Shown here piece after piece: positions 7,413 to 30,124 of a DNA stretch of 64,000 nucleotides. The notes under the pieces were generated by a model that was given only the letters and a program-made list of their open reading frames with translations, ran no database searches and was not told the origin of the DNA. The DNA is from Candidatus Woesearchaeota archaeon (lineage in GTDB: Archaea > Nanobdellota > Nanobdellia > Woesearchaeales > UBA10216): assembly GCA_016184345.1 (NCBI GenBank), contig JACPCV010000006.1:64065-128064 (forward strand), in the 5' to 3' direction. Numbering within the stretch: the stretch's first letter is position 1; every line of letters starts with the position of its first letter. A program made the translations under genes and the position numbers.

Positions 7413-8975
7413 ATGAAACATGGCTATTTGACATCAAAAGTTTTGGCTGCAGCTGCAGCAATTGTTTTAGCTCTGCTGCTGGTTCCGCAAGCCTTGGCAG
7501 CCCTGCAGGTAACCGCCTTCTCGTGCAATGGCGAATCAGGAACTATTAACGTCCCAAATAGCCTGCCGTTCACATGCATAGCCACAATCAACAACCCCGA
7601 CTCTTCAACTGCATCCCTTGGCTCTGTGAAGCTTTACATTGACGGAACCTGGGCAACGCAGGCTTATGATGCTTCGGGCTTTACAACTTCACTAGGCACA
7701 GGCGCCTCAACAACAGCTGTGTTTATCGACATCACACCCACCACTCCTGGAAGCCATAAGTTCTCCTACTTGCTTCTTGACGGAGTTTCAGATACGCTTG
7801 TGGCAGACGCTGTTGTCAATGTCATGGACATAAGGATATCAAAAGTGACTGCAAACATTTCCTCTGCAGCCCAGAACGCTAACTTCACTGTAACTGCTGA
7901 GCTCTCGATTGGCGGGGCCATGTCCGTAACAGTTACCATAGACCCGTCTGACTGCGCACTGGCTACAGGCGAAACTGCCTCCAAGACAATCGGCTCGCTC
8001 ACTGAAGGAAGCCAGAGCAGCGTTTCCTGGATGCTGAAGATGGGCGCAAATGACTGCAGCTTTACGGTTAGCGTTACCGGAACAGGCTCTGGAAGGGTGA
8101 CTGATGACGTCTCAGGCAGCGTGTCCTCAATCAGCAGCGGCAGCAGCCCTGAAAGCACAAGCAGCAGTAGCAGTGGCGGCGGGGGCGGGGGCGGCGGGGG
8201 AGGCGGAGGGGCAGCGCTTGTTGATGAAAGCGTGCTGTTAAGTTCAATACCTGCAGGAAGCGTTGGCACTTTCGGGTTCAAAAAATTCACTGACATCGCA
8301 GTTTATGAGGTTGCCCTCACCGCAAATGTCAACCTTGAAAATGCCAAGCTGACTGTGAAGGAAGCAAGGCTTGCAACCGGTACACAGCCCGCTTCAGAAA
8401 AGCCGTCAGAGGCTGTTTACAAGTATTTTTCAGTGAACAGGGAGAAGGTCAGCAATGAGCAGATAAGCGATGTTAAGATAAGGTTCAGGGTGCCTGAGAG
8501 CTACTTCAGGAAGGAGCAGGTTATCCCCGAAAGCGTTGTGCTGAAGAAACTGGTTAACAGCAGCTGGGTTTCCAATCCGACCACTATGCTTGGGAAGTCC
8601 GGCAGTTTCGTTAGCTATGAAGCAAGCGTTCCAGGGCTTTCCACATTCGCAGTCGTGGGCGAGAAAAAGGCAGGGGCTGTTGCCCAGAAGGCAGAGCCTG
8701 AAGGGGAGGAAACAGCAACTGAGAAAGCGGCTGCCGAAAGGGCTGCTGAGGAAGCTGCCAGGAAAGCTGCTGAGCAGCAGGCGCTGGCAGAAGGGAAGGG
8801 CGCCGGCGGTCTTGCTGAAAAAATCGGAGGGCTCAGTTCTTCAGTAAATATAGTAGGGACGCTTGTCTTAATAGTGGCGGCCATACTTATCGTGGTCGAG
8901 CTTATGCATTTCATGCACAGGAAGATGCCTCCTTTGAAGCTGCCAAGGATTCCCCCGCCTCCAACACAAGAGTAA
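7413..8975 (+). CDS. PGF-pre-PGF domain surface protein with C-terminal TM anchor
   Basis: Signal peptide. The segment AVYKYFSVNREKVSNEQISDVKIRFRVPESYF...SWVSNPTT...YEASVPGLSTFAVVG matches the archaeal PGF-pre-PGF domain pattern. Followed by an Ala/Glu-rich linker, a TM helix (VGTLVLIVAAILIVVEL) and a Pro-rich tail. Contains a Ser/Gly12 linker. Confidence 0.8.
   Translation: MKHGYLTSKVLAAAAAIVLALLLVPQALAALQVTAFSCNGESGTINVPNSLPFTCIATINNPDSSTASLGSVKLYIDGTWATQAYDASGFTTSLGTGASTTAVFIDITPTTPGSHKFSYLLLDGVSDTLVADAVVNVMDIRISKVTANISSAAQNANFTVTAELSIGGAMSVTVTIDPSDCALATGETASKTIGSLTEGSQSSVSWMLKMGANDCSFTVSVTGTGSGRVTDDVSGSVSSISSGSSPESTSSSSSGGGGGGGGGGGGAALVDESVLLSSIPAGSVGTFGFKKFTDIAVYEVALTANVNLENAKLTVKEARLATGTQPASEKPSEAVYKYFSVNREKVSNEQISDVKIRFRVPESYFRKEQVIPESVVLKKLVNSSWVSNPTTMLGKSGSFVSYEASVPGLSTFAVVGEKKAGAVAQKAEPEGEETATEKAAAERAAEEAARKAAEQQALAEGKGAGGLAEKIGGLSSSVNIVGTLVLIVAAILIVVELMHFMHRKMPPLKLPRIPPPPTQE
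8181..8211 (+). repeat. G-run tract (GGGGG C GGGGG CGGC GGGGG AGGCGGA GGGG) encoding poly-Gly; G-quadruplex-type motif
   Basis: Four runs of at least 4 G separated by 1-7 nt, read directly from the sequence on the coding strand. Confidence 0.6.
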
Positions 8976-9023
8976 GAAAAAAGTAAAGCATTCAAAGAAA
9001 AAGAACAAAGGGAGTTGAGAGAG

Positions 9024-9797
9024 TCACTCCCCTTTCTCCCTTGCTATGTCCACAACGTCCTTCTGGGTGAGCAGGGCTACTCCGGCTTCCTTGCCGATTA
9101 TCTCTACCTGCACAATCTTGTCAGGGTTGTCGAGGTCAACGTTCTTCCTGTCCACTACCTCGGTCAGCTTTATGATGAGCTGCCCTCCTTCAAGCTTGTC
9201 CCAATGCCTTTTGTTTAGGCCGAGCTTCCACTTTTCATTCTGCCCGATGCCTGCTGAGGCTGACCTTATCAGCTTCTGCATTGCTGAAACTTCAGACTGG
9301 CACCAGCTGTCAATTGGCGTGTAGTGGTGCGTTACTGAAAACAGGTTGGGATTGCTGTGGCAAAGGTTCCGTATCTTTGCAGCTGTTGCCCTTGCGTTTG
9401 AGACAGCCACCTTGAACAGGCCTTCAACCTCGGTCTGGCCAATCTGCGGCTTTTCGCCAGCCTGCCTTAGTACCTCGCGAAGCTCAAGCTCGGCTGTCCC
9501 CCTGTGGTTTGGGTCAAACGTCACAATCATGTTGGCCTGCCCCTTGAGCGGTGTTGAGCCAAGCGGCATAGGTTTGGCTGCAGCTTTAGTGGTTTTTCTC
9601 CCTTTCATTGCCTTGGCGGCTGCCTTCGGCTTTGCTTTTGCCTTTCTAGAAACAGTTCGTTTAACAGCCCCCACGTCGTTGCGACGACGGGGCCCAGTCG
9701 AGCGTCCTCGACTTGGGTTTCGTGATGGCTTCTTCGCTGCCTTTCTTGATTTTGCAGATTTGCCTTTGGCCCTGGCTTTTGCCCTTCTTTTTGCCAT
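9024..9797 (-). CDS. THUMP-domain protein with ~85-aa Lys/Arg/Ala-rich N-terminal tail
   Basis: The C-terminal ~170 aa (MIVTFDPNHRGTAELELREVL...LIIKLTEVVDRKNVDLDNPDKIVQVEIIG) resemble stand-alone archaeal THUMP proteins. The ATG at 9797 has GGGGGTGA 6 nt upstream; the ORF could also start at 9803. Confidence 0.6.
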   Translation of the reverse strand: MAKRRAKARAKGKSAKSRKAAKKPSRNPSRGRSTGPRRRNDVGAVKRTVSRKAKAKPKAAAKAMKGRKTTKAAAKPMPLGSTPLKGQANMIVTFDPNHRGTAELELREVLRQAGEKPQIGQTEVEGLFKVAVSNARATAAKIRNLCHSNPNLFSVTHHYTPIDSWCQSEVSAMQKLIRSASAGIGQNEKWKLGLNKRHWDKLEGGQLIIKLTEVVDRKNVDLDNPDKIVQVEIIGKEAGVALLTQKDVVDIAREKGE

Positions 9798-9961
9798 GAA
9801 CATTCACCCCCTGTTTGAGCCTGGCCAGAGGGGTTCAATTATATTAACTTTTCGCTTTGTCGACTGGAACAAGCACGGCATTGGCTTTTCTTTGCCGTAC
9901 ACATGCGTCTGAAGTATATTCACAAAAGATTTTAATAATACCGAACAGGTGTATATGTAAC

Positions 9962-10764: not shown

Positions 10765-11190
10765 GTGGTAAAAATTCAAAAGATAAGGTCGGTAATTAAA
10801 AAGGTTGGTGATGCATACGTTATCGGGATACAAGAGCAGTTATTGGATTATCTCGGGCTTAAAGAGGGAGATGAAGTTGAATTTGAGCCGAAAAAAGTAT
10901 TTAAGTTGGCAGAAAGGGTAACTGGTTCTGAAGGCGAGGCGAAAATCAAGCTTACCGATACCTGTTTTAATTACGGTGTGGCCACATTAAGCGTAAACGA
11001 CAGGCACTTGTTCCCTCAGGATCACAACCCTTTCCTGCTTGAAATAGACGGCAGGCTGGAGAGGAAACATGTCGCGTCCCTCAAAATTGCCATGAAGCCA
11101 TTCTTTGATAGACACCCGGGGTTACGGAAAAAAGAACACATCACGATTAAAGTGGTAAAGCCATCAGAGGAATACAAGCTGGTTTATTAA
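10765..11190 (+). CDS. AbrB/SpoVT-like N-terminal domain protein
   Basis: N-terminus VIKKVGDAYVIGIQEQLLDYLGLKEGDEVEFE fits the swapped-hairpin AbrB/SpoVT pattern. The C-terminal ~95 aa are unrecognised. GTG start. Confidence 0.5.
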   Translation: MVKIQKIRSVIKKVGDAYVIGIQEQLLDYLGLKEGDEVEFEPKKVFKLAERVTGSEGEAKIKLTDTCFNYGVATLSVNDRHLFPQDHNPFLLEIDGRLERKHVASLKIAMKPFFDRHPGLRKKEHITIKVVKPSEEYKLVY

Positions 11191-22617: not shown

Positions 22618-23310
22618 TTAATGCATCGCCTTCTCCATCTCCTCCCTTGCCTTGTCCGCTAATCTGTGCGCCAGGTGCAAGGGCTCCGGCAGCTTGTGCG
22701 GCTGCCGGATTGTTTTTGTTACGACATCTACAGCTGTATGCAGGCTTACCTTGTGGCCAACTGAAACGTATAGGGGCTTTGAGTGCGGCTTTGCCTTTAC
22801 CTCTGCGCCGATTATCTCCTTTCCCACCTTTATGTTCCCTGCCTCGTCTTCCTCGCCGAGCAGTTTTGTTTTTGCAATGCCGACAGTTGCCTGGTCCAGC
22901 TCAACTCCCAGGTGGGAAGCAAGTCCACATCGGAGCGGGTGGAGGACGCCGTTGCCGTCAACCAGCAGGATATCGGGCTTATGCCTCAGCCTGCGGAATG
23001 CCTCTTTTATGGCAGGCCCTTCGCGGAAGTAAAGCATGCCCGCAAGGTAGGGAAAATCTGTCTCTACGGCAGCGGTCTTTCTCTCTATCACGTTGAGCTT
23101 ATCGTCGCAGACAACAACTGCGGCTACCACTGCGTTGTTCGTGTATGCGCAGTCGCAACCGCCAATCGTCTTTACCTCCCCAGCTTCATCGGTCGTGACG
23201 ACCTTTCGGGCTGCTGCCAGCTGCTCCTCTTTTAACTGTTCAATGTTCATCATGAATGGGCCCGGCCAGACTTTCGAAGCCGCTTTCAAGGCTGTTCGAA
23301 CTGGCGACAT
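22618..23310 (-). CDS. nfi: endonuclease V
   Basis: Motifs GGCDCAY, YFREGPAI and LVDGNGVLHPLRCGLASHLGV. The true start may be the internal ATG pair at 23253/23250. Confidence 0.85.
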   Translation of the reverse strand: MSPVRTALKAASKVWPGPFMMNIEQLKEEQLAAARKVVTTDEAGEVKTIGGCDCAYTNNAVVAAVVVCDDKLNVIERKTAAVETDFPYLAGMLYFREGPAIKEAFRRLRHKPDILLVDGNGVLHPLRCGLASHLGVELDQATVGIAKTKLLGEEDEAGNIKVGKEIIGAEVKAKPHSKPLYVSVGHKVSLHTAVDVVTKTIRQPHKLPEPLHLAHRLADKAREEMEKAMH

Positions 23311-23409
23311 CCACCCTGTGAAGGTGGCGTCATAACCACTAGACCACAGGCCCGTAACAGCACTGTGGAAGGTAAAAGTTTAAAAAAGTTATCTGTTGCG
23401 GCAGTTCCA

Positions 23410-24048
23410 ATGATTAAGGGAGTGATTTTTGACTGGAACGGCACTTTGTCTGATGACATTCCCAGGGTTTTTTCCGTTGCAATGAAAACCTCTGAGAGGC
23501 TTGGAGGGCGAGTTCTGTCATTAGCAGAGTATCGCCGCCTGGTAAGAAACCCTTACATGCCTTTTTACCGCGACCTCGGCTGCACTGCCTCCAAGAAAGA
23601 GACTAACAGGTGGTACCAGTACTATTTGAACCGCAGCAAGATACCTGTGCGGCTGTTTCCTGATGCTGTTAAATTGCTTAAGTTCCTAAAAAGCCACGGC
23701 ATAATTGTGGGCATAGTCAGCAGCCACCCGGGCTATGCGCTCAGGGCAGAGGCCAAAACGTATGGCATAAGCAGATACCTGGACTTTATGAAAGGCGATG
23801 CTCATGCCAAGCGCTACCACATAGCCATGTTTTTGAGGCTGTACAAGCTTAAGCCTAAGGAAGTTGTATTCATTGGGGACATGGCAAACGACATCGAAGA
23901 GGGCAGGAAGTGCGGCGTCATCACTGCCGCTTACCTCAGGGGAGTTGACTCAAAGTCCAAGCTGGTGCCGCAAAAGCCGGATATCATTCTGCCAACCCTG
24001 CTGTCACTGAAGAAGCATGTTTCTAAGCAAGAAAAAAATATGCGTTGA
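23410..24048 (+). CDS. HAD-superfamily hydrolase (phosphatase-like)
   Basis: Motif I variant GVIFDWNGTL (Trp replaces the usual second Asp of DxD); later VVFIGDMANDIEEG. ATG at 23410; the ORF opens at a GTG at 23365. Confidence 0.75.
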   Translation: MIKGVIFDWNGTLSDDIPRVFSVAMKTSERLGGRVLSLAEYRRLVRNPYMPFYRDLGCTASKKETNRWYQYYLNRSKIPVRLFPDAVKLLKFLKSHGIIVGIVSSHPGYALRAEAKTYGISRYLDFMKGDAHAKRYHIAMFLRLYKLKPKEVVFIGDMANDIEEGRKCGVITAAYLRGVDSKSKLVPQKPDIILPTLLSLKKHVSKQEKNMR

Positions 24049-24107
24049 TAGCAATATTTTTATATTTCATACCTACTCTCCAGATTCGGTTGGGCTGCTG
24101 AGCAGGA

Positions 24108-24923
24108 ATGGTAACATTGGCTAAAGAAAGTTACAGAAAGACGTCTCTGCTTCTGGTAGGTAATGGTATGGGAACTGAAGAGCTGCGCTCATTTGTCGAG
24201 AGGCCGCCGTACTCAAGCTATTTGCGCTTGGCAGGCGAGGTTTCTGCTCAAAGAGGGGCAAATGAGATTACAAGGCTGTTTAGAGGCGAAAATGTGGATG
24301 TGGCTTGCGTCACGGCGACAATTTATACTGCAAAAAAAGCCAGTGGCTTAATAGCAGCACTGAAACATGAGGTTCCTCATAAGGGGATAGTGGCTGTCTG
24401 CGAACAGCCTGATAAAGAGGAAAGTGAGGCTCTTAAGCGGGCTGGTATTTCTGGGCGTGCTGATTTTGCCGGGCTTTTTTTAGCTTCCGGGGCAAACGCA
24501 TATATAGGCATTACAGACTACTCGCCTCAGGACTTAAGTCGTGGATCACATCAGCTTTTTTCGGCTGTAGAGGCTGTGAAATGGGGCGGTTTTTATTCAA
24601 GCGAGCCTCCTGAGAGGTTTGTGGTGCCGAATTATCTTGCTTTTAACATTGCTGCAGGCCTTAGAAAAACCAAACCACTCTTGAAAGAAGCCATGCTCCT
24701 CACTGGTTTAGAGAGACTCACAGAAAGAGAAAGGGAAGTTGCAATAATGGCCTGTCAGGGTCAAAGAAATAAAACAATTGCCAATAAGTTAGGAATTAGT
24801 CCTAGGACAGTGGAAAGCCACATTCATAAAATTCTTTTAAAATTAGAGGTGCATGGGAAAGGTGAGCTATTGCCCTTTTTTGTTCAGCCGGAACAGCTGC
24901 TGCTTTCGCAGCATCAAAATTAA
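24108..24923 (+). CDS. LuxR/GerE-type HTH regulator with degenerate receiver-like N-terminal domain
   Basis: C-terminal LTEREREVAIMACQGQRNKTIANKLGISPRTVESHIHKILLKLEV. The N-terminal region has a REC-like beta/alpha rhythm (LLLVGNG, VDVACVT, IVAVCEQ) without the acidic pocket or acceptor Asp. Confidence 0.7.
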   Translation: MVTLAKESYRKTSLLLVGNGMGTEELRSFVERPPYSSYLRLAGEVSAQRGANEITRLFRGENVDVACVTATIYTAKKASGLIAALKHEVPHKGIVAVCEQPDKEESEALKRAGISGRADFAGLFLASGANAYIGITDYSPQDLSRGSHQLFSAVEAVKWGGFYSSEPPERFVVPNYLAFNIAAGLRKTKPLLKEAMLLTGLERLTEREREVAIMACQGQRNKTIANKLGISPRTVESHIHKILLKLEVHGKGELLPFFVQPEQLLLSQHQN

Positions 24924-24988
24924 GGCAGCTTCATTACTATCCTGCCTTCCTTGAACACCCTGACTGTTCCGCCGCTTTCCGAGACGAC
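24924..24988. repeat. 65-bp direct repeat, left copy (relic 3' end of the diadenylate cyclase gene)
   Basis: Identical to 27104-27168. Similarity continues imperfectly for ~13 more nt (to 25001 / 27181). On the minus strand it still reads ...VSESGGTVRVFKEGRIVMKLP-stop. Confidence 0.9.
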
Positions 24989-25046
24989 TGCAGAGATTGA
25001 GCAAAACGGAAAACAATAAAAAACGTCAAGGTTCTGGGCTAGACAC

Positions 25047-25649
25047 ATGCTCACGCTCGTACAGCACTTGTCAAAAAGGGTTAAAGACGCCGCAAATAGT
25101 TTGACGAGAAGGTTTACAAAAAAGCAGATAGCTTTCCTCGCTGTAGTTGCTTTAGCGCTTGTCGTAATCTTTCAAGGTTTTATAAGGGCGCTGCTATTGA
25201 TAGCAATCCTGTTCGTGATAGGGGTCTTTTCCACTTATTACAAGAGAAAGCTTGAAGATATGAGCGCAATGGGTTTTGAGCTGGTCACTTCCACCTCAGT
25301 GATTGCGGGCATAGCGTTTGGTCCTCTTTTCGGGGCTGTTTTCGGCTTTGCTACCGCTCTTGTCTCGGTTACGCTGTCAAGGGACGTTGGGGTCACCACT
25401 ATTTTGTTCCTGCTGGCAACAGTCAGTGCTGGCGCTGCCGCCCAACTCCTGAGCTCATTCCTGAGGCTGGTAGCGACAGGCATGGTTCTGCTTACCTTTT
25501 CAATGCTTCTTGTTCAAAGCTACACTTTTTTTCTCCAGCGTGAAAACTTGTATAAGGTCACGGCTGTAATCGGTATTTTAGTTAACTTTGCGGTAAATTA
25601 CCTTTTCCTGTCGCATGCTGCCGGCACGCTTCTGGCGCTCGTGCCTTAA
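25047..25649 (+). CDS. hypothetical polytopic membrane protein (200 aa)
   Basis: ATG ORF with 5-6 hydrophobic segments; no motif recognised. Confidence 0.5.
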   Translation: MLTLVQHLSKRVKDAANSLTRRFTKKQIAFLAVVALALVVIFQGFIRALLLIAILFVIGVFSTYYKRKLEDMSAMGFELVTSTSVIAGIAFGPLFGAVFGFATALVSVTLSRDVGVTTILFLLATVSAGAAAQLLSSFLRLVATGMVLLTFSMLLVQSYTFFLQRENLYKVTAVIGILVNFAVNYLFLSHAAGTLLALVP

Positions 25650-25713
25650 CGAATGCTAAAGCGAATGCCTTCGTTCCGAAAGAAATAAATATGATTTGCT
25701 AAAAGGCACTTTT

Positions 25714-26811
25714 ATGGCACTGAACATTGTATTTGGTTCGCTGAAGTCTGGCATGGACAGCTTTTTGAGCCGGCAGCTTGGCAGCAGCACTGCAGGTGAA
25801 CTGCTTAGCATCTTTCTGGCGTTCCTTGTCTCGTTCGTAATAATGGAGTTAGTCAGGACACTCCTCATAGGCAAGCTGAAAAATCTTGCCAAGAAAAGCA
25901 AGTCTGAGTTTGATGACATGCTTCTGGATGCGGTAGGCAGGATTGGCAGGCCGCTTTACTTCCTAGTGGCTGTTTACATAGCACTGAAGTTCACGCAGCT
26001 TGACGAGACAGTGTCAAAGATTTTAGGCTACGCTCTGCTGGTTGGGGTAACTTACTACACGGTAAGGGTAGCGCAAAGCGTGATAAACTACTTCACGCGG
26101 AAGGAAATAAAGAAAAGGGCAAAGGGTGAGGAAGAGGCCCAAACCGCTTCTGTGGTAAACCTGATAACAAGCGCAGTCAACGCCGCGCTCTGGCTTTTTG
26201 CGATTCTGTTCCTTCTTTCAAACTTCGGCTTTGACATAACATCGCTCGTTGCAGGGCTTGGCATAGGCGGCTTGGCGATTGCACTCGCGCTGCAGAGCGT
26301 GTTCGGCGACATCTTTGCGACGATATCTATCTACTTTGACAAGCCATTCAAGGGAGGGGACTTCGTAATCATAGGCCAAGATATGGGAACAGTCCAGCAC
26401 ATCGGACTGAAGTCAACCAGGATAAAGACGCTGCAGGGGCAGGAGCTCGTAATTCCAAACAGGGAAATCACAAACGCGAGAATAAACAACTACAAGAGGA
26501 TGGACAAGAGAAGGGTCGTCTTCAGCATAGGAGTCGTTTACGGCACGAAGAAAGAAAAGCTGGAGAAAATCCCAGATATGATAAGGAAGGTAATTGCAAA
26601 GAACGCGGGAGCCGAGGTTGACCGCGTGCATTTCAAGGAGTTCGGCCCGTACAGCCTCAACTTTGAAGTGGTTTACTACGTCCTGACAGGCGACTACAAC
26701 AAGTACATGGACACCCAGCAGGAAATAAACCTCGCAATAAAGGACGCTTTTGAGAAAGAGGGGATAGATATGGCTTTCCCGACACAGACTGTTATTCTGA
26801 ATAAGCAGTAG
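25714..26811 (+). CDS. small-conductance mechanosensitive channel (MscS family)
   Basis: TM helices followed by the MscS beta-domain pattern FKGGDFVIIGQDMGTVQHIGLKSTRIKTLQGQELVIPNREITNARINNY. The ATG at 25714 is preferred to the TTG at 25696. Confidence 0.85.
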   Translation: MALNIVFGSLKSGMDSFLSRQLGSSTAGELLSIFLAFLVSFVIMELVRTLLIGKLKNLAKKSKSEFDDMLLDAVGRIGRPLYFLVAVYIALKFTQLDETVSKILGYALLVGVTYYTVRVAQSVINYFTRKEIKKRAKGEEEAQTASVVNLITSAVNAALWLFAILFLLSNFGFDITSLVAGLGIGGLAIALALQSVFGDIFATISIYFDKPFKGGDFVIIGQDMGTVQHIGLKSTRIKTLQGQELVIPNREITNARINNYKRMDKRRVVFSIGVVYGTKKEKLEKIPDMIRKVIAKNAGAEVDRVHFKEFGPYSLNFEVVYYVLTGDYNKYMDTQQEINLAIKDAFEKEGIDMAFPTQTVILNKQ

Positions 26812-26969
26812 CTCCGCCTTCCACGTGCTTCACCCACAACATGCCAATGAGGTGAAACTTGCAACGAAGCCGTTTCTTAAATATCTTCTCAAAAGGCACT
26901 TTTCAATAACCCAAATATTTTTATAAGATTAAGATTATTGGATTTTAACAACTGAAACAGGTGATGTAA

Positions 26970-27077
26970 ATGAAAATGGACGAAGGACAAGGCGGGGAAG
27001 GCGGAAGCGGCGGAGATACCGGTTCCGGCGGCTCCGAAGGCGGGGAAGGTAGCGGCTCAGGAGAAGGTGCCAAATAA
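26970..27077 (+). CDS. possible 35-aa Gly/Ser/Glu-rich peptide (MKMDEGQGGEGGSGGDTGSGGSEGGEGSGSGEGAK)
   Basis: Translated by hand. AGGTGAT Shine-Dalgarno-like motif 5-6 nt upstream of the ATG; TATA-like TTTTTATAAG about 45 nt upstream. Confidence 0.35.
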   Translation: MKMDEGQGGEGGSGGDTGSGGSEGGEGSGSGEGAK

Positions 27078-27099
27078 GCGTTGGCAGCAAATGCCCAAG

Positions 27100-28350
27100 T
27101 CACGGCAGCTTCATTACTATCCTGCCTTCCTTGAACACCCTGACTGTTCCGCCGCTTTCCGAGACGACAACAGCTATTGAGTTTGTCAGCTTGGTGATTG
27201 CGGCGGAATACCTGTGCCTTGTCCCGAATCCCTCAAACCCTTCCAGGTTCGCGTCCGAAAGGTCTATGTTGATGTGCGTGCCCGCTGACAGCACCGTCCC
27301 TTTTTCGTCTATGAAGAACACCCCATCCAGCTGAGAGAACCCTTTTATGGTCTCTTTCATGTCCGGGTCTGTTATCTGCTTCATCTCTGAAGGATAATTC
27401 GCAAAGGGGTTGATGATGAGCTGCCTGGCATATTTTGACATCTCGCCCGCATCCCCGACTATGAATGCGGTTCCTATCTTCCTGCCTTCCCTGCCTTCGT
27501 TTACAATTTCCATTGCAATGTTAAGGATTGCTTCGAGCACGTCGCTGCTTATTTTCTCGGTGAGGTTGTGGATGCTCATGTTGAAGAATATCTTGTCAAC
27601 GTCAAACACAAAGATAAGCCCCTTGTAGCCGGTTCCTATGCTTTCGTCTGCCACGCAGACTATCCTTTCTCCCTTGTTTATGAAGTGCCTGTTGACAGCC
27701 TCCATGAGGATTTCCTTTACAGGGAGCGTTGAGCCTCCTATCTGCTTCCTCATCTTGGTGGTATAGCTGAGCTTTGTGTATACGTTCTTAGCTGTTTTCT
27801 TGAATATTGCCAGCTTGACGTAGATGAGATTGAAGTCCTGCGCCTCTTTCTCGGCTTTTTCGATTGAGACTATGCAGTCTGCGCCGACATCCTTGGATAG
27901 CCTTGTCGCTGCCTTTCCTATTAGTTCCTCTATGCTTGTCTGGCTGTAGGGGTCCTTGACTGCTGTGAGGCTTTCACTTTTTCTGGTGCCAGCGCTTTCC
28001 TTATGCTGGAGCTGCTTCAGCTGCTCTGAAATGAACAAGGTTTGTGACTGAGGAACCGGCTGCACCTTAAGTGTTGGTTCGGCAGCCCGGCTTACTGCGA
28101 TGTTCAGCACAGGCTTTTCTTTTTGCAGTTGCATTGGCTGCGGTTGTGATAACTGCTGAGCAGGTTTTATTTCCTCTGGTGTCTTAAAGAAGGAATTGAG
28201 CTTTTTCTGGTTGTATACACGGTCTATCTCTTCAAGCACGTTTTTCGGGATTGCATCTTTCGGGTTGATTGCCTTTTTCTGGATGACTGTGTAGCGGTAT
28301 CCCTTGAAGTCATCCTCGTCTGCTTTCAGCCTCGCAAGCTTCTTGTCCAT
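27100..28350 (-). CDS. diadenylate cyclase, DacZ/CdaZ-like (PK_C-like domain + DAC domain) with Gln/Pro-rich N-terminal region
   Basis: DAC motifs LDGVFFIDEKG...SAG and GFGTRHRYSAAIT...VVVSESGG. The ATG at 28350 lies 5 nt after the upstream mscS stop; the longer ORF start would overlap mscS. Confidence 0.8.
   Translation of the reverse strand: MDKKLARLKADEDDFKGYRYTVIQKKAINPKDAIPKNVLEEIDRVYNQKKLNSFFKTPEEIKPAQQLSQPQPMQLQKEKPVLNIAVSRAAEPTLKVQPVPQSQTLFISEQLKQLQHKESAGTRKSESLTAVKDPYSQTSIEELIGKAATRLSKDVGADCIVSIEKAEKEAQDFNLIYVKLAIFKKTAKNVYTKLSYTTKMRKQIGGSTLPVKEILMEAVNRHFINKGERIVCVADESIGTGYKGLIFVFDVDKIFFNMSIHNLTEKISSDVLEAILNIAMEIVNEGREGRKIGTAFIVGDAGEMSKYARQLIINPFANYPSEMKQITDPDMKETIKGFSQLDGVFFIDEKGTVLSAGTHINIDLSDANLEGFEGFGTRHRYSAAITKLTNSIAVVVSESGGTVRVFKEGRIVMKLP
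27104..27168. repeat. 65-bp direct repeat, right copy (functional 3' end of the diadenylate cyclase gene)
   Basis: Identical to 24924-24988; offset exactly 2180 bp. Confidence 0.9.
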
Positions 28351-28355
28351 CTTAA

Positions 28356-29231
28356 TCAGGCCTTCCACTCGTTCCTGAATTTTGCAAGCACTTTTTTGGT
28401 GACTTCGCTTTTGACAGACTGGAGCTCTTTCACGTTGCACAGGTACCTCAGCGCAAGCTCAACATACGGCGCGTTTGAGGCCAGGTACTCAATCCTTGCC
28501 CTCACCTCAGGCTTTACTTCAGCGTTCCATTTCTTTGAGGCAGCCTTCATTTCTTTGCCAATCACTTCCTCCGCGCATTCAAGGAGCTTTTTTTCAACCT
28601 TCCTGAGGTTGGCCTGGGGCGGCACCCTTACCTTAAGCTCGTTCCATACAAGGGCTGAGCCTTTGGTATAATTAACGATAGGATGAGTCAGGACCATCTC
28701 GTTAGGTACATACGCCATCCTCCCTGTTTGCTCGTCCTTTTCAATCAGGCTTATGTGCGTGTGCATGAGCGCAATGTCGTGCACATACCCTCCGACATTC
28801 CCTATGTCTACTCTGTCGCCAATCCTGAAAGGCCTCTTGGCTACTATCAGGAACCACCCTACTATGTTGAGTATGGGCCTTTGCAATGCAAGGGTCAGGC
28901 CGGCGGCCAGCAGCCCTATTGAGGTAATGGCAGGCCCTATTACCCCGTAAAGCAGTAACATGGCAACAAGGATAAGGATTATCAAGACGACATACTTGTA
29001 AACAGAGGTCATCTGCTTAAGCTCGCCTTTGTCTTTTGTCTTTGCATATCTCTGCAGCAGCAGCACGCCTATCCTCGTGATAATGCTTGAGGCTATAACT
29101 ACAAGCAGGATTACCAGAAGTTTTGTGAGCGCATTGTAATATGCTGTGAGGCTTTGCTGTTTAGCCAGGTATGCAGCAGCGCCTGTAGCGGCTGTGAGCA
29201 GAAGAAGCAGTAAAGTTCCAATGTGCTTCAT
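28356..29231 (-). CDS. small-conductance mechanosensitive channel (MscS family)
   Basis: Signal/TM N-terminus, three TM segments, then RPFRIGDRVDIGNVGGYVHDIALMHTHI...AYVPNEMVLTHPIVNYT. Confidence 0.85.
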   Translation of the reverse strand: MKHIGTLLLLLLTAATGAAAYLAKQQSLTAYYNALTKLLVILLVVIASSIITRIGVLLLQRYAKTKDKGELKQMTSVYKYVVLIILILVAMLLLYGVIGPAITSIGLLAAGLTLALQRPILNIVGWFLIVAKRPFRIGDRVDIGNVGGYVHDIALMHTHISLIEKDEQTGRMAYVPNEMVLTHPIVNYTKGSALVWNELKVRVPPQANLRKVEKKLLECAEEVIGKEMKAASKKWNAEVKPEVRARIEYLASNAPYVELALRYLCNVKELQSVKSEVTKKVLAKFRNEWKA

Positions 29232-29256
29232 CGCTGCGCCTCATTTTTCGCCCTTT

Positions 29257-29328
29257 AATAAAAAAGTAAGGCTCCCTAACGTGAGTTGGGGGTATGGGAG
29301 AGAAGTCTCTTTAGGGAGCCCCTTTTTT
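29257..29328. terminator. 10-bp hairpin (GGCTCCCTAA/TTAGGGAGCC, 31-nt loop) flanked by A6 and T6: bidirectional terminator-like structure
   Basis: Read directly from the sequence. Lies downstream of vapC and only ~25-40 nt upstream of the mscS start codon. Confidence 0.5.
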
Positions 29329-29486
29329 CAAATATCAGGCAATATGGCATAACCAATATATAAATGTTACGTTTTTGTATACTGGAATAGGAATGTATCT
29401 GTTATGACTACTGCTGAGTGCGGCATGACAAGCGCCCGGACGGGGCATTCTTGTAAAATCCGGATAGGCGAACCAGGGAATGCGAC

Positions 29487-29879
29487 TCAGTAAATTGCTA
29501 TGTCTTTTATCCTCTGAAAGTCGCTTTTGTTAGCTGTTACGATCGTCTGGCAGCCGTTAGTCAGCATTGCACCTGCGATAAGCGTGTCAAGAACATTTAT
29601 CATCATACCTTTGTTCTCAAGCTCCGCAGCTATGGCCGCTGCCTTTTTGGCAGCCCTTGGGTCCATATTTATTACGGGACAGGAATTGAAGAATGCCTCT
29701 GCGACCTCCATTGCTTTATTGTCCTTTCTTCTCAGGAGCCCGTGCATTACTTCGAAAACGTTTATGCTTGTTGTACATGGAAAAGTTTCTCTTGTAACAT
29801 CTGCTATTTGCTCTATCGCTGCCGATTTTCCTCTAAGAAAATCGATGATTAGCGTGCTATCCATGCACACATTTTTCAT
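29487..29879 (-). CDS. vapC: PIN-domain toxin
   Basis: MDSTLIIDFLRG... with conserved acidic residues, and C-terminal TIVTANKSDFQRI. ATGA overlap with the upstream antitoxin gene. Confidence 0.85.
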   Translation of the reverse strand: MKNVCMDSTLIIDFLRGKSAAIEQIADVTRETFPCTTSINVFEVMHGLLRRKDNKAMEVAEAFFNSCPVINMDPRAAKKAAAIAAELENKGMMINVLDTLIAGAMLTNGCQTIVTANKSDFQRIKDIAIY

Positions 29880-30124
29880 TTGAACCTCTCCTTGAAACGT
29901 TCCCTGAACTGCTTGGACGCGCGCGCACGCATCTGCCTGATGCCTGACTTAATCTCTTCCGTTTCCTCATCACTGAGGTAGCTTAAGGCTCCCGCAAACC
30001 GCATGATGTCCTGTTTGCCTCCTGTAATTCGCTTTATCTCCTCGCTGAAGCTTTCCTCTGGCCTCTTGAGGGCTTTCAGCCGCTCATACGCGTCCTTTGT
30101 CACAGTTATCGTTTTAGTCACCAT
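29876..30124 (-). CDS. vapB: VapB-type antitoxin (archaeal ribbon-helix-helix-like, 82 aa)
   Basis: MVTKTITVTKDAYERLKALKRPEESFSEEI resembles archaeal putative antitoxins paired with PIN toxins; 4-nt overlap with vapC. Confidence 0.7.
   Translation of the reverse strand: MVTKTITVTKDAYERLKALKRPEESFSEEIKRITGGKQDIMRFAGALSYLSDEETEEIKSGIRQMRARASKQFRERFKERFK

What the first reader, a model, noticed from the sequence alone, without database searches (positions are those of the whole stretch)
24924..27168. 65-bp perfect direct repeats bracket a 2.18-kb MscS-containing segment inserted at the 3' end of the diadenylate cyclase gene
24924-24988 is identical to 27104-27168 (offset 2180 bp), with ~13 further nt of imperfect similarity. 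The right copy is the last ~21 codons of the cyclase gene (minus strand). The left copy, just after the luxR-type gene, still reads ...VSESGGTVRVFKEGRIVMKLP plus a stop (CCT TAA instead of CCG TGA). It looks like the original gene end, displaced by an insertion that carried its own replacement 3' end. That is the signature of site-specific integrative elements (attL/attR). The cargo is a membrane protein, a second MscS channel and a tiny Gly-rich ORF, and it contains no integrase.
Basis: partly seen in the sequence, partly recalled or inferred. Interest (0 to 1): 0.6.

Follow-up and report, generated by a model that had tools for sequence, protein, structure and literature searches.

The report
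Integrase-less gene cassette at cyclase gene end
A 2.2-kb block carrying a mechanosensitive-channel gene was inserted at the end of the c-di-AMP cyclase gene of a Woesearchaeota archaeon; it brought its own copy of the gene's last codons, has moved between species without any recombinase of its own, and is one of several such small cassettes in this group.

Summary
24924-24988 and 27104-27168 are identical (65 nt; 85 nt at 92%), and these are the only two copies in the 884-kb genome.

The insertion reading is supported by comparison with relatives:
- A second species (G009) has the same block at the same place. The block is about 95% identical (dS 0.14), while ten flanking genes are saturated (dS above 1.2).
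- The closest relatives, G001 and G003, have undisturbed cyclase ends.
- In G009 the two repeat copies are reciprocal chimeras, which points to one Campbell-type crossover between a circular DNA and the gene end.
- The block supplies the new last codons and the stop codon. The left copy is the displaced original end.

No integrase is encoded in the block, and no tyrosine or serine recombinase was found in the assembly, which is 85% complete.

The same architecture recurs: a 33-65-nt duplicated gene end, with cargo convergent on the target. I found it at two other genes of this genome, at the cyclase end of G004 (AbiEii cargo) and around an MscS gene on an unrelated contig.

Host homologous recombination is my favoured driver, but this is not proven.

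The parts
24924..24988 (-). Left repeat copy: the displaced original 3' end of the cyclase gene (last 21 codons, followed by CCT TAA at 24920-24925). Equivalent to attL.
   Evidence: reads ...VSESGGTVRVFKEGRIVMKLP*
24989..25001 (-). Inner tail of the cassette's cyclase mimic (TGCAGAGATTGAG; 9/13 match to the real gene). It is identical in G000 and G009. It is joined at about 24997-25001 to the native upstream sequence of TM200.
25002..25046 (+). Upstream region of TM200. In relatives L139 and L141 this sequence is the 3' end of the HAD gene. It marks the original breakpoint of the cassette.
25047..25649 (+). Cargo gene 1: 200-aa polytopic membrane protein (TM200). It belongs to a multi-copy Woesearchaeota family. 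There is only a sub-threshold hit to the ECF S-component family.
25627..25719 (+). Conserved block of about 90 nt covering the upstream region and start of the MscS gene. It is shared with different MscS genes in relatives and is the left limit of the MscS-only copy in a third lineage.
25714..26811 (+). Cargo gene 2: MscS-family mechanosensitive channel (MscS371; the longest ORF starts at TTG 25696).
26970..27077 (+). Cargo gene 3: 35-codon Gly/Ser/Glu-rich ORF preceded by TATA-like and GGTGAT motifs. The peptide is identical in G009.
27078..27103 (-). Right arm of the cassette. It carries the new stop codon of the cyclase gene (TGA, 27100-27102) and the third base of its last codon. The flank CAGCAAATGCCCAAGTCAC is shared with G009.
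27104..27168 (-). Right repeat copy: the functional 3' end of the cyclase gene. Equivalent to attR.
27100..28350 (-). Target gene: DacZ-type diadenylate cyclase (probable start MDKKLARL; the longest ORF runs to 28440). It lies directly downstream of the MscS291 gene (28356-29231).
24108..24923 (+). Left flank: LuxR/GerE-type gene that abuts the displaced cyclase stop. It is found in no other genome of the family, so it is a separate genome-specific acquisition at the same hotspot.

Best explanation
The 2.18-kb segment is a small mobile gene cassette (TM200, an MscS channel and a tiny Gly-rich ORF) that encodes no recombinase. It carries a mimic of about 78 nt of the last codons of the diadenylate cyclase gene. 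A circular form of the cassette recombined once, reciprocally, with the chromosomal cyclase gene inside this mimic (Campbell-type insertion). As a result the cassette now provides the last codons, the stop codon and the 3' flank of the gene, and the original end is left behind as the left repeat. The cassette itself came from a relative's chromosome in which TM200, MscS and the cyclase gene are natural neighbours; one illegitimate joint fused the cyclase fragment to the TM200 upstream region. I infer that the crossover is made by the host's homologous recombination system rather than by a dedicated integrase. Recombination between the two repeats can loop the cassette out again, and the circle can enter any related genome that has the conserved gene end. 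Shown here: insertion, replacement of the gene end, transfer between species, reciprocal chimeras, absence of a recombinase in cis. Inferred: the circular intermediate and homologous recombination as the enzyme system.
For: Perfect 65-nt repeats, with only two copies in the genome. G009 has the same cassette at the same site: 92-98% DNA identity inside against about 75% outside; dS is 0.14 for both cargo genes against 1.2 to saturation for ten flanking genes. G001 and G003 have empty sites, and the cargo genes are absent from those genomes. In G009 the right copy is cassette-like from its outer flank to core position 41 and host-like beyond. The left copy is host-like, with mostly synonymous differences, up to position 39-57 and cassette-like beyond. 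That is the reciprocal pattern of a single crossover. The junction at 24997-25001 joins the cyclase fragment to a sequence that is the HAD 3' end/TM200 upstream in L139 and L141. A native convergent MscS-cyclase arrangement exists in G002 and in the L142-L146 lineage. No integrase lies in the cassette, and the genome has no PF00589 or PF00239 hit. In favour of homologous recombination: in G000 the mimic equals the host allele 65/65 while its innermost 13 nt carry 4 mismatches. The mimic versions in G000 and G009 differ only at third codon positions, as if picked up from host alleles. The MscS gene alone (25627-26818, 95%) has also been exchanged into a third lineage. Four further cassettes of the same architecture, at three other targets, share no end motif.
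Against: The genome is only 85% complete and even lacks the near-universal XerA, so a recombinase acting in trans could lie in the missing part. In G009 the inferred crossover (core position 40-59) lies in a stretch of poor identity between host and cassette apart from an invariant 8-mer, CCGCTTTC; homologous recombination would be expected in the 25-nt identical block at positions 1-25. The independent G004 cassette duplicates exactly core positions 1-40, close to the G009 switch at 41/42, which hints at a preferred site. All five cassettes have cargo convergent with the target and short duplications (33-78 nt). Random homologous events do not predict this regularity, although survivorship of short repeats could.
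Confidence: 0.6

Rival explanations
1. A decayed or non-autonomous site-specific integrative element (CIME-like). The repeats are attL and attR of a tyrosine or serine recombinase that is encoded elsewhere (another element, a virus, or the unassembled 15% of the genome) and that recognises the cyclase gene end.
For: The architecture is the same as e14/phage 21 in icd, where the element supplies the last codons and leaves a pseudo-3' end (PMC6379469), and as CIMEs (PMC5704250). The G009 crossover interval contains an invariant 8-mer that could serve as an overlap region. The G004 duplication ends at core position 40, next to the G009 switch. G009 does encode a second tyrosine recombinase.
Against: No recombinase lies in or near the cassette, and none is detectable in G000. 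No integrase-bearing element sits at the cyclase end in the relatives' loci I examined or in any fetched contig. Cassettes at four different targets share no end or core motif, so several specificities would be needed. The perfect match of the mimic to the resident allele, together with a decayed inner tail, is not expected from a fixed crossover point. The cargo derives from the same chromosomal interval in relatives.
Confidence: 0.25
2. Insertion by a break-repair or transposition-like process that itself creates a long target-site duplication (staggered or resected break at a gene end, filled in after capture of foreign DNA). Spread to other species came later.
For: Near-perfect repeats in all three G000 cases (100%, 98%, 96%). 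Duplication lengths are similar and short (33-65 nt). No end motifs are present.
Against: The inner 13-nt tail of the left copy is diverged cyclase sequence and is shared by G000 and G009, which a fresh duplication would not give. The reciprocal chimeras in G009 need a crossover with a pre-existing mimic. In G005 the case-2 cargo lies next to its target without any duplication, as a native neighbour.
Confidence: 0.1
3. An old segmental duplication or ancestral arrangement inherited vertically and lost in some species, or an assembly artefact.
For: TM200 and an MscS gene do belong to this interval in other members of the genus.
Against: dS of the cargo is 0.14 against more than 1.2 for the flanks. 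The closest relative lacks the cassette. The repeats are perfect in G000. The same junctions occur in an independent assembly with diverged repeats.
Confidence: 0.03

Closest known systems
e14 / phage 21 integration into the 3' end of icd in Escherichia coli
   Same: The element inserts inside the 3' end of a protein-coding gene and carries a replacement for the last codons. The displaced original end remains as a pseudo-3' fragment, giving direct repeats (attL/attR) (PMC6379469).
   Different: e14 is a 15-kb prophage remnant with its own integrase, and its duplicated part is about 163 bp. Here the element is 2.2 kb, has no recombinase, sits in a DPANN archaeon, and its cargo derives from the homologous locus of relatives.
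CIMEs (cis-mobilizable elements) of streptococci
   Same: They are flanked by attL and attR made of a target gene end and have lost all integration and transfer genes (PMC5704250).
   Different: CIMEs are decay products of ICEs or IMEs and are moved by the integrase of a related element at the same site. No such integrase-bearing relative was found here, and the cargo shows no trace of a decayed mobile element.
Campbell-type (single-crossover) integration of non-replicating circles by homologous recombination, as used in insertion-duplication genetics (my own knowledge)
   Same: One reciprocal crossover in a short homology duplicates that homology as direct repeats around the inserted DNA. Excision happens by recombination between the repeats.
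   Different: It is known mainly as a laboratory technique. Here it would act in nature on 33-78-nt homologies and turn small gene blocks into cassettes that spread between species.
Genomic islands at tmRNA or tRNA genes with tandem partial-gene repeats (for example Dehalococcoides ssrA islands, PMC3146451, abstract listed)
   Same: A conserved gene end serves as a recurrent insertion hotspot, with duplicated ends and accessory cargo.
   Different: Those islands carry cognate integrases and target RNA genes. These cassettes target the ends of protein-coding genes and lack integrases.

Membership tests
Integrase-encoding integrative element (prophage/ICE/IME; e14-icd type) | Direct repeats made of the target gene end flank the element | tested here: met
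   65-nt perfect repeats at 24924-24988 and 27104-27168
Integrase-encoding integrative element (prophage/ICE/IME; e14-icd type) | The element restores the interrupted gene with its own copy of the end | tested here: met
   The right copy, the TGA stop and the 3' flank are cassette-type in both G000 and G009; the protein C-terminus is unchanged
Integrase-encoding integrative element (prophage/ICE/IME; e14-icd type) | Encodes its own site-specific recombinase next to an att site | tested here: not met
   The cargo consists of TM200, MscS and a 35-aa ORF. No PF00589 or PF00239 match in the whole G000 assembly
Integrase-encoding integrative element (prophage/ICE/IME; e14-icd type) | Empty target sites in related genomes | tested here: met
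   G001 and G003 have a single undisturbed cyclase end
Integrase-encoding integrative element (prophage/ICE/IME; e14-icd type) | Excision to a circular form with a hybrid attP, leaving an attB | not testable with these tools
No circular form was found in viral contigs
CIME (cis-mobilizable element) | Retains attL/attR but has no integration or transfer genes | tested here: met
CIME (cis-mobilizable element) | Derives from, and is mobilised by, an integrase-bearing element of the same att specificity | tested here: inconclusive
   No integrase-bearing element lies at the cyclase end in the relatives' loci I examined or in the fetched contigs. Sampling is limited and G000 is 85% complete
Transposon / IS / MITE | Terminal inverted repeats and a short target-site duplication | tested here: not met
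   No terminal inverted repeats at the cassette ends. The duplication is 65-78 nt of coding sequence
Integron gene cassette | attC site on the cassette and an IntI integrase with attI | tested here: not met
   No tyrosine recombinase in the genome. Cassettes lie at four different gene ends, not in an array
IMEX (element exploiting host Xer recombinase at dif) | The repeats are dif-like 28-bp sites | not tested
   The repeats are gene-coding sequence that differs between targets. The dif site of this lineage is unknown

The most novel reading that the evidence does not exclude
Woesearchaeota, and perhaps other DPANN archaea, carry a class of recombinase-free mobile gene cassettes. Each carries a 33-78-nt mimic of the 3' end of a conserved host gene, inserts there by a single crossover that restores the gene, always places its cargo convergent with the target, and spreads between species. 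Cargo includes MscS channels, Fic and AbiEii toxins. This would be a general route of accessory-gene flow in tiny genomes that lack classical mobile-element machinery, driven either by host recombination alone or by an undescribed enzyme.
Probability: 0.4. Interest if true: 0.75.

Novelty: new variant of a known kind. Interest (0 to 1): 0.58.

Why it matters
DPANN archaea have very small genomes and few recognisable mobile elements, yet their gene content varies greatly. This locus gives a concrete, sequence-level route for that variation. Small gene blocks carry a short copy of a conserved gene's end, insert without harming the gene, and move between species whose other genes are saturated with synonymous change. 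The target here is the only c-di-AMP cyclase gene, and the cargo is a mechanosensitive channel, so the event also reshuffles the osmotic-stress toolkit around its second-messenger gene. If host recombination alone is enough, the line between a mobile element and ordinary chromosomal DNA becomes blurred. That idea is directly testable in tractable archaea.

Tried and rejected
- Rfam scan of 23000-30000: only a sub-threshold tRNA hit, and no riboswitch in the conserved MscS upstream block.
- Composition profile: no GC anomaly across the cassette.
- Metagenome scan with MscS371: only about 50% relatives, none with TM200 or a cyclase remnant beside them.
- Viral contigs: no relative.
- Junction 29-mer in species-representative genomes: found only in G009.
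- Degenerate cyclase-end pattern in 401 genomes of the order: uninformative, because the pattern is too specific outside the genus.
- The second tyrosine recombinase of G009 (next to dinB): no flanking repeats and no link to the cassette.
- Homology-facilitated illegitimate recombination of a linear fragment: rejected for G000, because the inner tail of the left copy is not G000's own cyclase sequence.
- Tandem duplication followed by replacement of the first copy: rejected as needing several exact coincidences.
- Other direct repeats found in fetched loci (L056, L071, L083, L106, L127, L051): low complexity, intergenic repeats or paralog N-termini, not gene-end duplications.
Full report
**1. 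Observation**

The two copies are exactly as reported. 24924-24988 equals 27104-27168 (65/65, offset 2180), and the match extends to 85 nt at 92%. The right copy is the end of a diadenylate cyclase ORF on the minus strand (Pfam DAC) and ends CCG TGA. The left copy ends CCT TAA, and its stop overlaps the stop of a LuxR/GerE gene.

The 884-kb, 6-contig genome (G000) holds only these two copies. Names attached to homologues place it in Candidatus Woesearchaeota. Between the copies lie a 200-aa membrane protein (TM200, 25047-25649), an MscS channel (25714-26811) and a 35-codon Gly-rich ORF (26970-27077). GC content shows no anomaly across the segment.

**2. It is an insertion, and it has moved between species**

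- Another species of the genus, G009 (a groundwater MAG), has TM200, MscS, the Gly ORF and a second cyclase end at the same place.
- A G000-G009 alignment is 92-98% identical from the inner edge of the left copy to the middle of the right copy. On both sides it is about 75% identical.
- dS is 0.14 for both cargo genes. It is 1.2 to saturation for ten flanking genes.
- G001, one of the closest relatives (cyclase 88-89% identical at the protein level), and G003 have one undisturbed cyclase end followed by a Fic gene. They lack close homologues of the cargo anywhere in their genomes.
- This excludes vertical inheritance of an old duplication. Because G009 was assembled independently and its repeats are diverged, it also excludes an assembly artefact.

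**3. Topology of the event**

In G009 the right (functional) copy shares with G000 its 3' flank (CAGCAAATGCCCAAGTCAC) and core positions 1-41, with one mismatch. From position 42 on it diverges at third codon positions, like the rest of the gene.

The left copy does the opposite. It differs from G000 at positions 12-39 (and at 45, 48 and 57), mostly synonymously, like a genuine cyclase end of another species. Beyond that it is about 98% identical through the junction into TM200.

Reciprocal chimeras of this kind are what a single crossover between a circle and the chromosome produces. The crossover lies between core positions 40 and 59. The cassette therefore supplies the last 14-19 codons, the stop and the 3' flank of the gene, and the left copy is the displaced host end.

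**4. Where the cassette came from**

Same-genus contigs L139, L140 and L141 carry about 80% identical TM200 orthologues. In L139 and L141 the orthologue follows the HAD gene directly. This is inside the same interval between EndoV/tRNA-Val and the cyclase gene.

G000's homology to these contigs resumes at 24997, which corresponds to the HAD 3' end in L139. So the left copy's cyclase-like 78 nt are fused there to native TM200 upstream sequence.

G002 has a native MscS gene convergent with the cyclase gene. L139 keeps a truncated N-terminus of that MscS type behind the same conserved ~90-nt upstream block found at 25627-25719.

The cassette is therefore a piece of a relative's version of this very locus, closed by one illegitimate joint.

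The MscS gene alone (25627-26818, 95% identity) also sits in a third lineage (L142-L146). It is again convergent with a cyclase end, it retains the last 22 nt of TM200, and its flanks are otherwise unalignable.

**5. Which enzyme**

Evidence that no dedicated recombinase is visible:
- Nothing in the cassette resembles a recombinase.
- The G000 assembly has no Phage_integrase or Resolvase match, while control genomes do. The assembly is only 85% complete.
- No integrase-bearing element sits at a cyclase end in any relative or contig examined.

Three features favour host homologous recombination with variable crossover points:
- In G000 the mimic equals the resident allele at 65/65 positions, while its innermost 13 nt, where crossovers cannot occur, carry 4 mismatches that are shared with G009.
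- The G000 and G009 versions of the mimic differ only at third codon positions, as if copied from host alleles.
- Tracts of gene-conversion size have been exchanged between lineages at this locus.

Two features count against it:
- The G009 crossover lies in a poorly matching stretch, apart from an invariant 8-mer (CCGCTTTC).
- The independent G004 cassette (section 6) duplicates exactly core positions 1-40, next to that switch.

**6. The architecture recurs**

A self-comparison of the genome found two more cases in G000.
- C5 90924/91917: 47-nt repeats made of the end of an HTH-CBS regulator gene. The cargo is a 286-aa ORF.
- C3 33988/35004: 45-nt repeats made of the end of a conserved 126-aa gene. 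The cargo is a Fic protein.

Relatives show single-copy empty sites for both.
- G008 shares the Fic insertion. The cargo is 90-98% identical against 65-78% for the flanks, and the remnant is decayed.
- G005 has the 286-aa gene next to its target without any duplication, that is, as a native neighbour.

Two further cases lie in other genomes.
- G004, a close relative, has a different cassette (AbiEii toxin, 1.39 kb) at the cyclase end with a duplication of about 42 nt.
- An unrelated metagenome contig (L109) has an MscS gene bracketed by 33-36-nt repeats made of the end of a 154-aa membrane-protein gene.

In all five cases the cargo is convergent with the target. The remnant lies beyond the cargo's 5' end. 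No end motif is shared between cases.

**7. Comparison with known systems**

The closest analogue is e14/phage 21 in icd (PMC6379469). The closest integrase-less category is the CIME (PMC5704250). This cassette fails the defining integrase feature of the first. For the second it lacks any sign of a parental integrase-bearing element. I therefore file it as a new variant, not as a member of either.

**8. Limits**

The choice between homologous and site-specific recombination rests on inference from five cassettes.

Noticed in passing
G000 contig C5 90924-90970 and 91917-91963 (outside the window): A second cassette of the same architecture. The 47-nt repeats (98% identical) are the last 15 codons of an HTH-CBS regulator gene (90402-90977, +). 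They bracket a convergent 286-aa ORF of unknown function. G008 and G004 have empty sites. G005 has target and cargo adjacent without any duplication.
   Followed up: partly
G000 contig C3 33988-34032 and 35004-35048 (30 kb upstream of the window): A third cassette. The 45-nt repeats are the end of a conserved 126-aa gene and bracket a convergent Fic gene. Eight relatives have empty sites. G008 shares the insertion, with cargo 90-98% identical against flanks of about 70%.
   Followed up: partly
L029 (G004:C82) 298-343 and 1684-1725: An independent 1.39-kb cassette carrying an AbiEii toxin gene at the same cyclase gene end in a close relative. It has a duplication of about 42 nt that ends at core position 40.
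   Followed up: partly
L109 (Ga0180437_10000022) 9774-9809 and 11032-11067: An MscS gene (about 50% identical to MscS371) bracketed by 33-36-nt repeats made of the 3' end of a convergent 154-aa membrane-protein gene. This is the same architecture in an unrelated contig.
   Followed up: partly
window 23287-23353 (minus strand): A tRNA-Val(CAC) gene interrupted by a non-canonical intron. It scores 24.9 bits in Rfam and is missed by ARAGORN. It is intact in G003 and carries one or two introns in G001, G002 and G009. It forms the other boundary of the variable interval, and the long EndoV ORF call runs over it.
   Followed up: partly
window 24108-24923: The LuxR/GerE gene has no homologue in the other 25 genomes of the family apart from one weak HTH-only hit. 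In G009 a Fic gene plus a small membrane-protein ORF occupy its place, so it is a separate genome-specific acquisition that abuts the displaced cyclase stop codon.
   Followed up: partly
window 25627-25719: A block of about 90 nt (end of TM200, TATA-like AAATAAATAT, ATG GCA) is conserved upstream of three different MscS genes in different genomes (MscS371, the G002-type MscS430, and the truncated 86-aa ORF in L139). It may be a shared promoter or leader, or a recombination boundary. It has no Rfam match.
   Followed up: partly
window 25047-25649 and G000:C6 126966-129720: TM200 belongs to a family of about 200-aa membrane proteins with several copies in most genomes of the family (six matches in G000), some in tandem arrays. 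Its only Pfam lead is a sub-threshold hit to the ECF transporter S component (E 0.018).
   Followed up: no
G000 contigs C5 1-103 and C6 163495-163597; C4 27964-28309 and C6 5967-6309: Contig ends overlap as reverse complements (99% over 103 nt), which suggests that C5 and C6 can be joined. A 346-nt segment at 91% identity is shared by C4 and C6.
   Followed up: no
L137 (G009:C20) 8643-9917: A 424-aa tyrosine recombinase lies downstream of a dinB-like polymerase gene and is followed by several ORFs with no Pfam match. It is a candidate integrated element with no detectable flanking repeats.
   Followed up: partly
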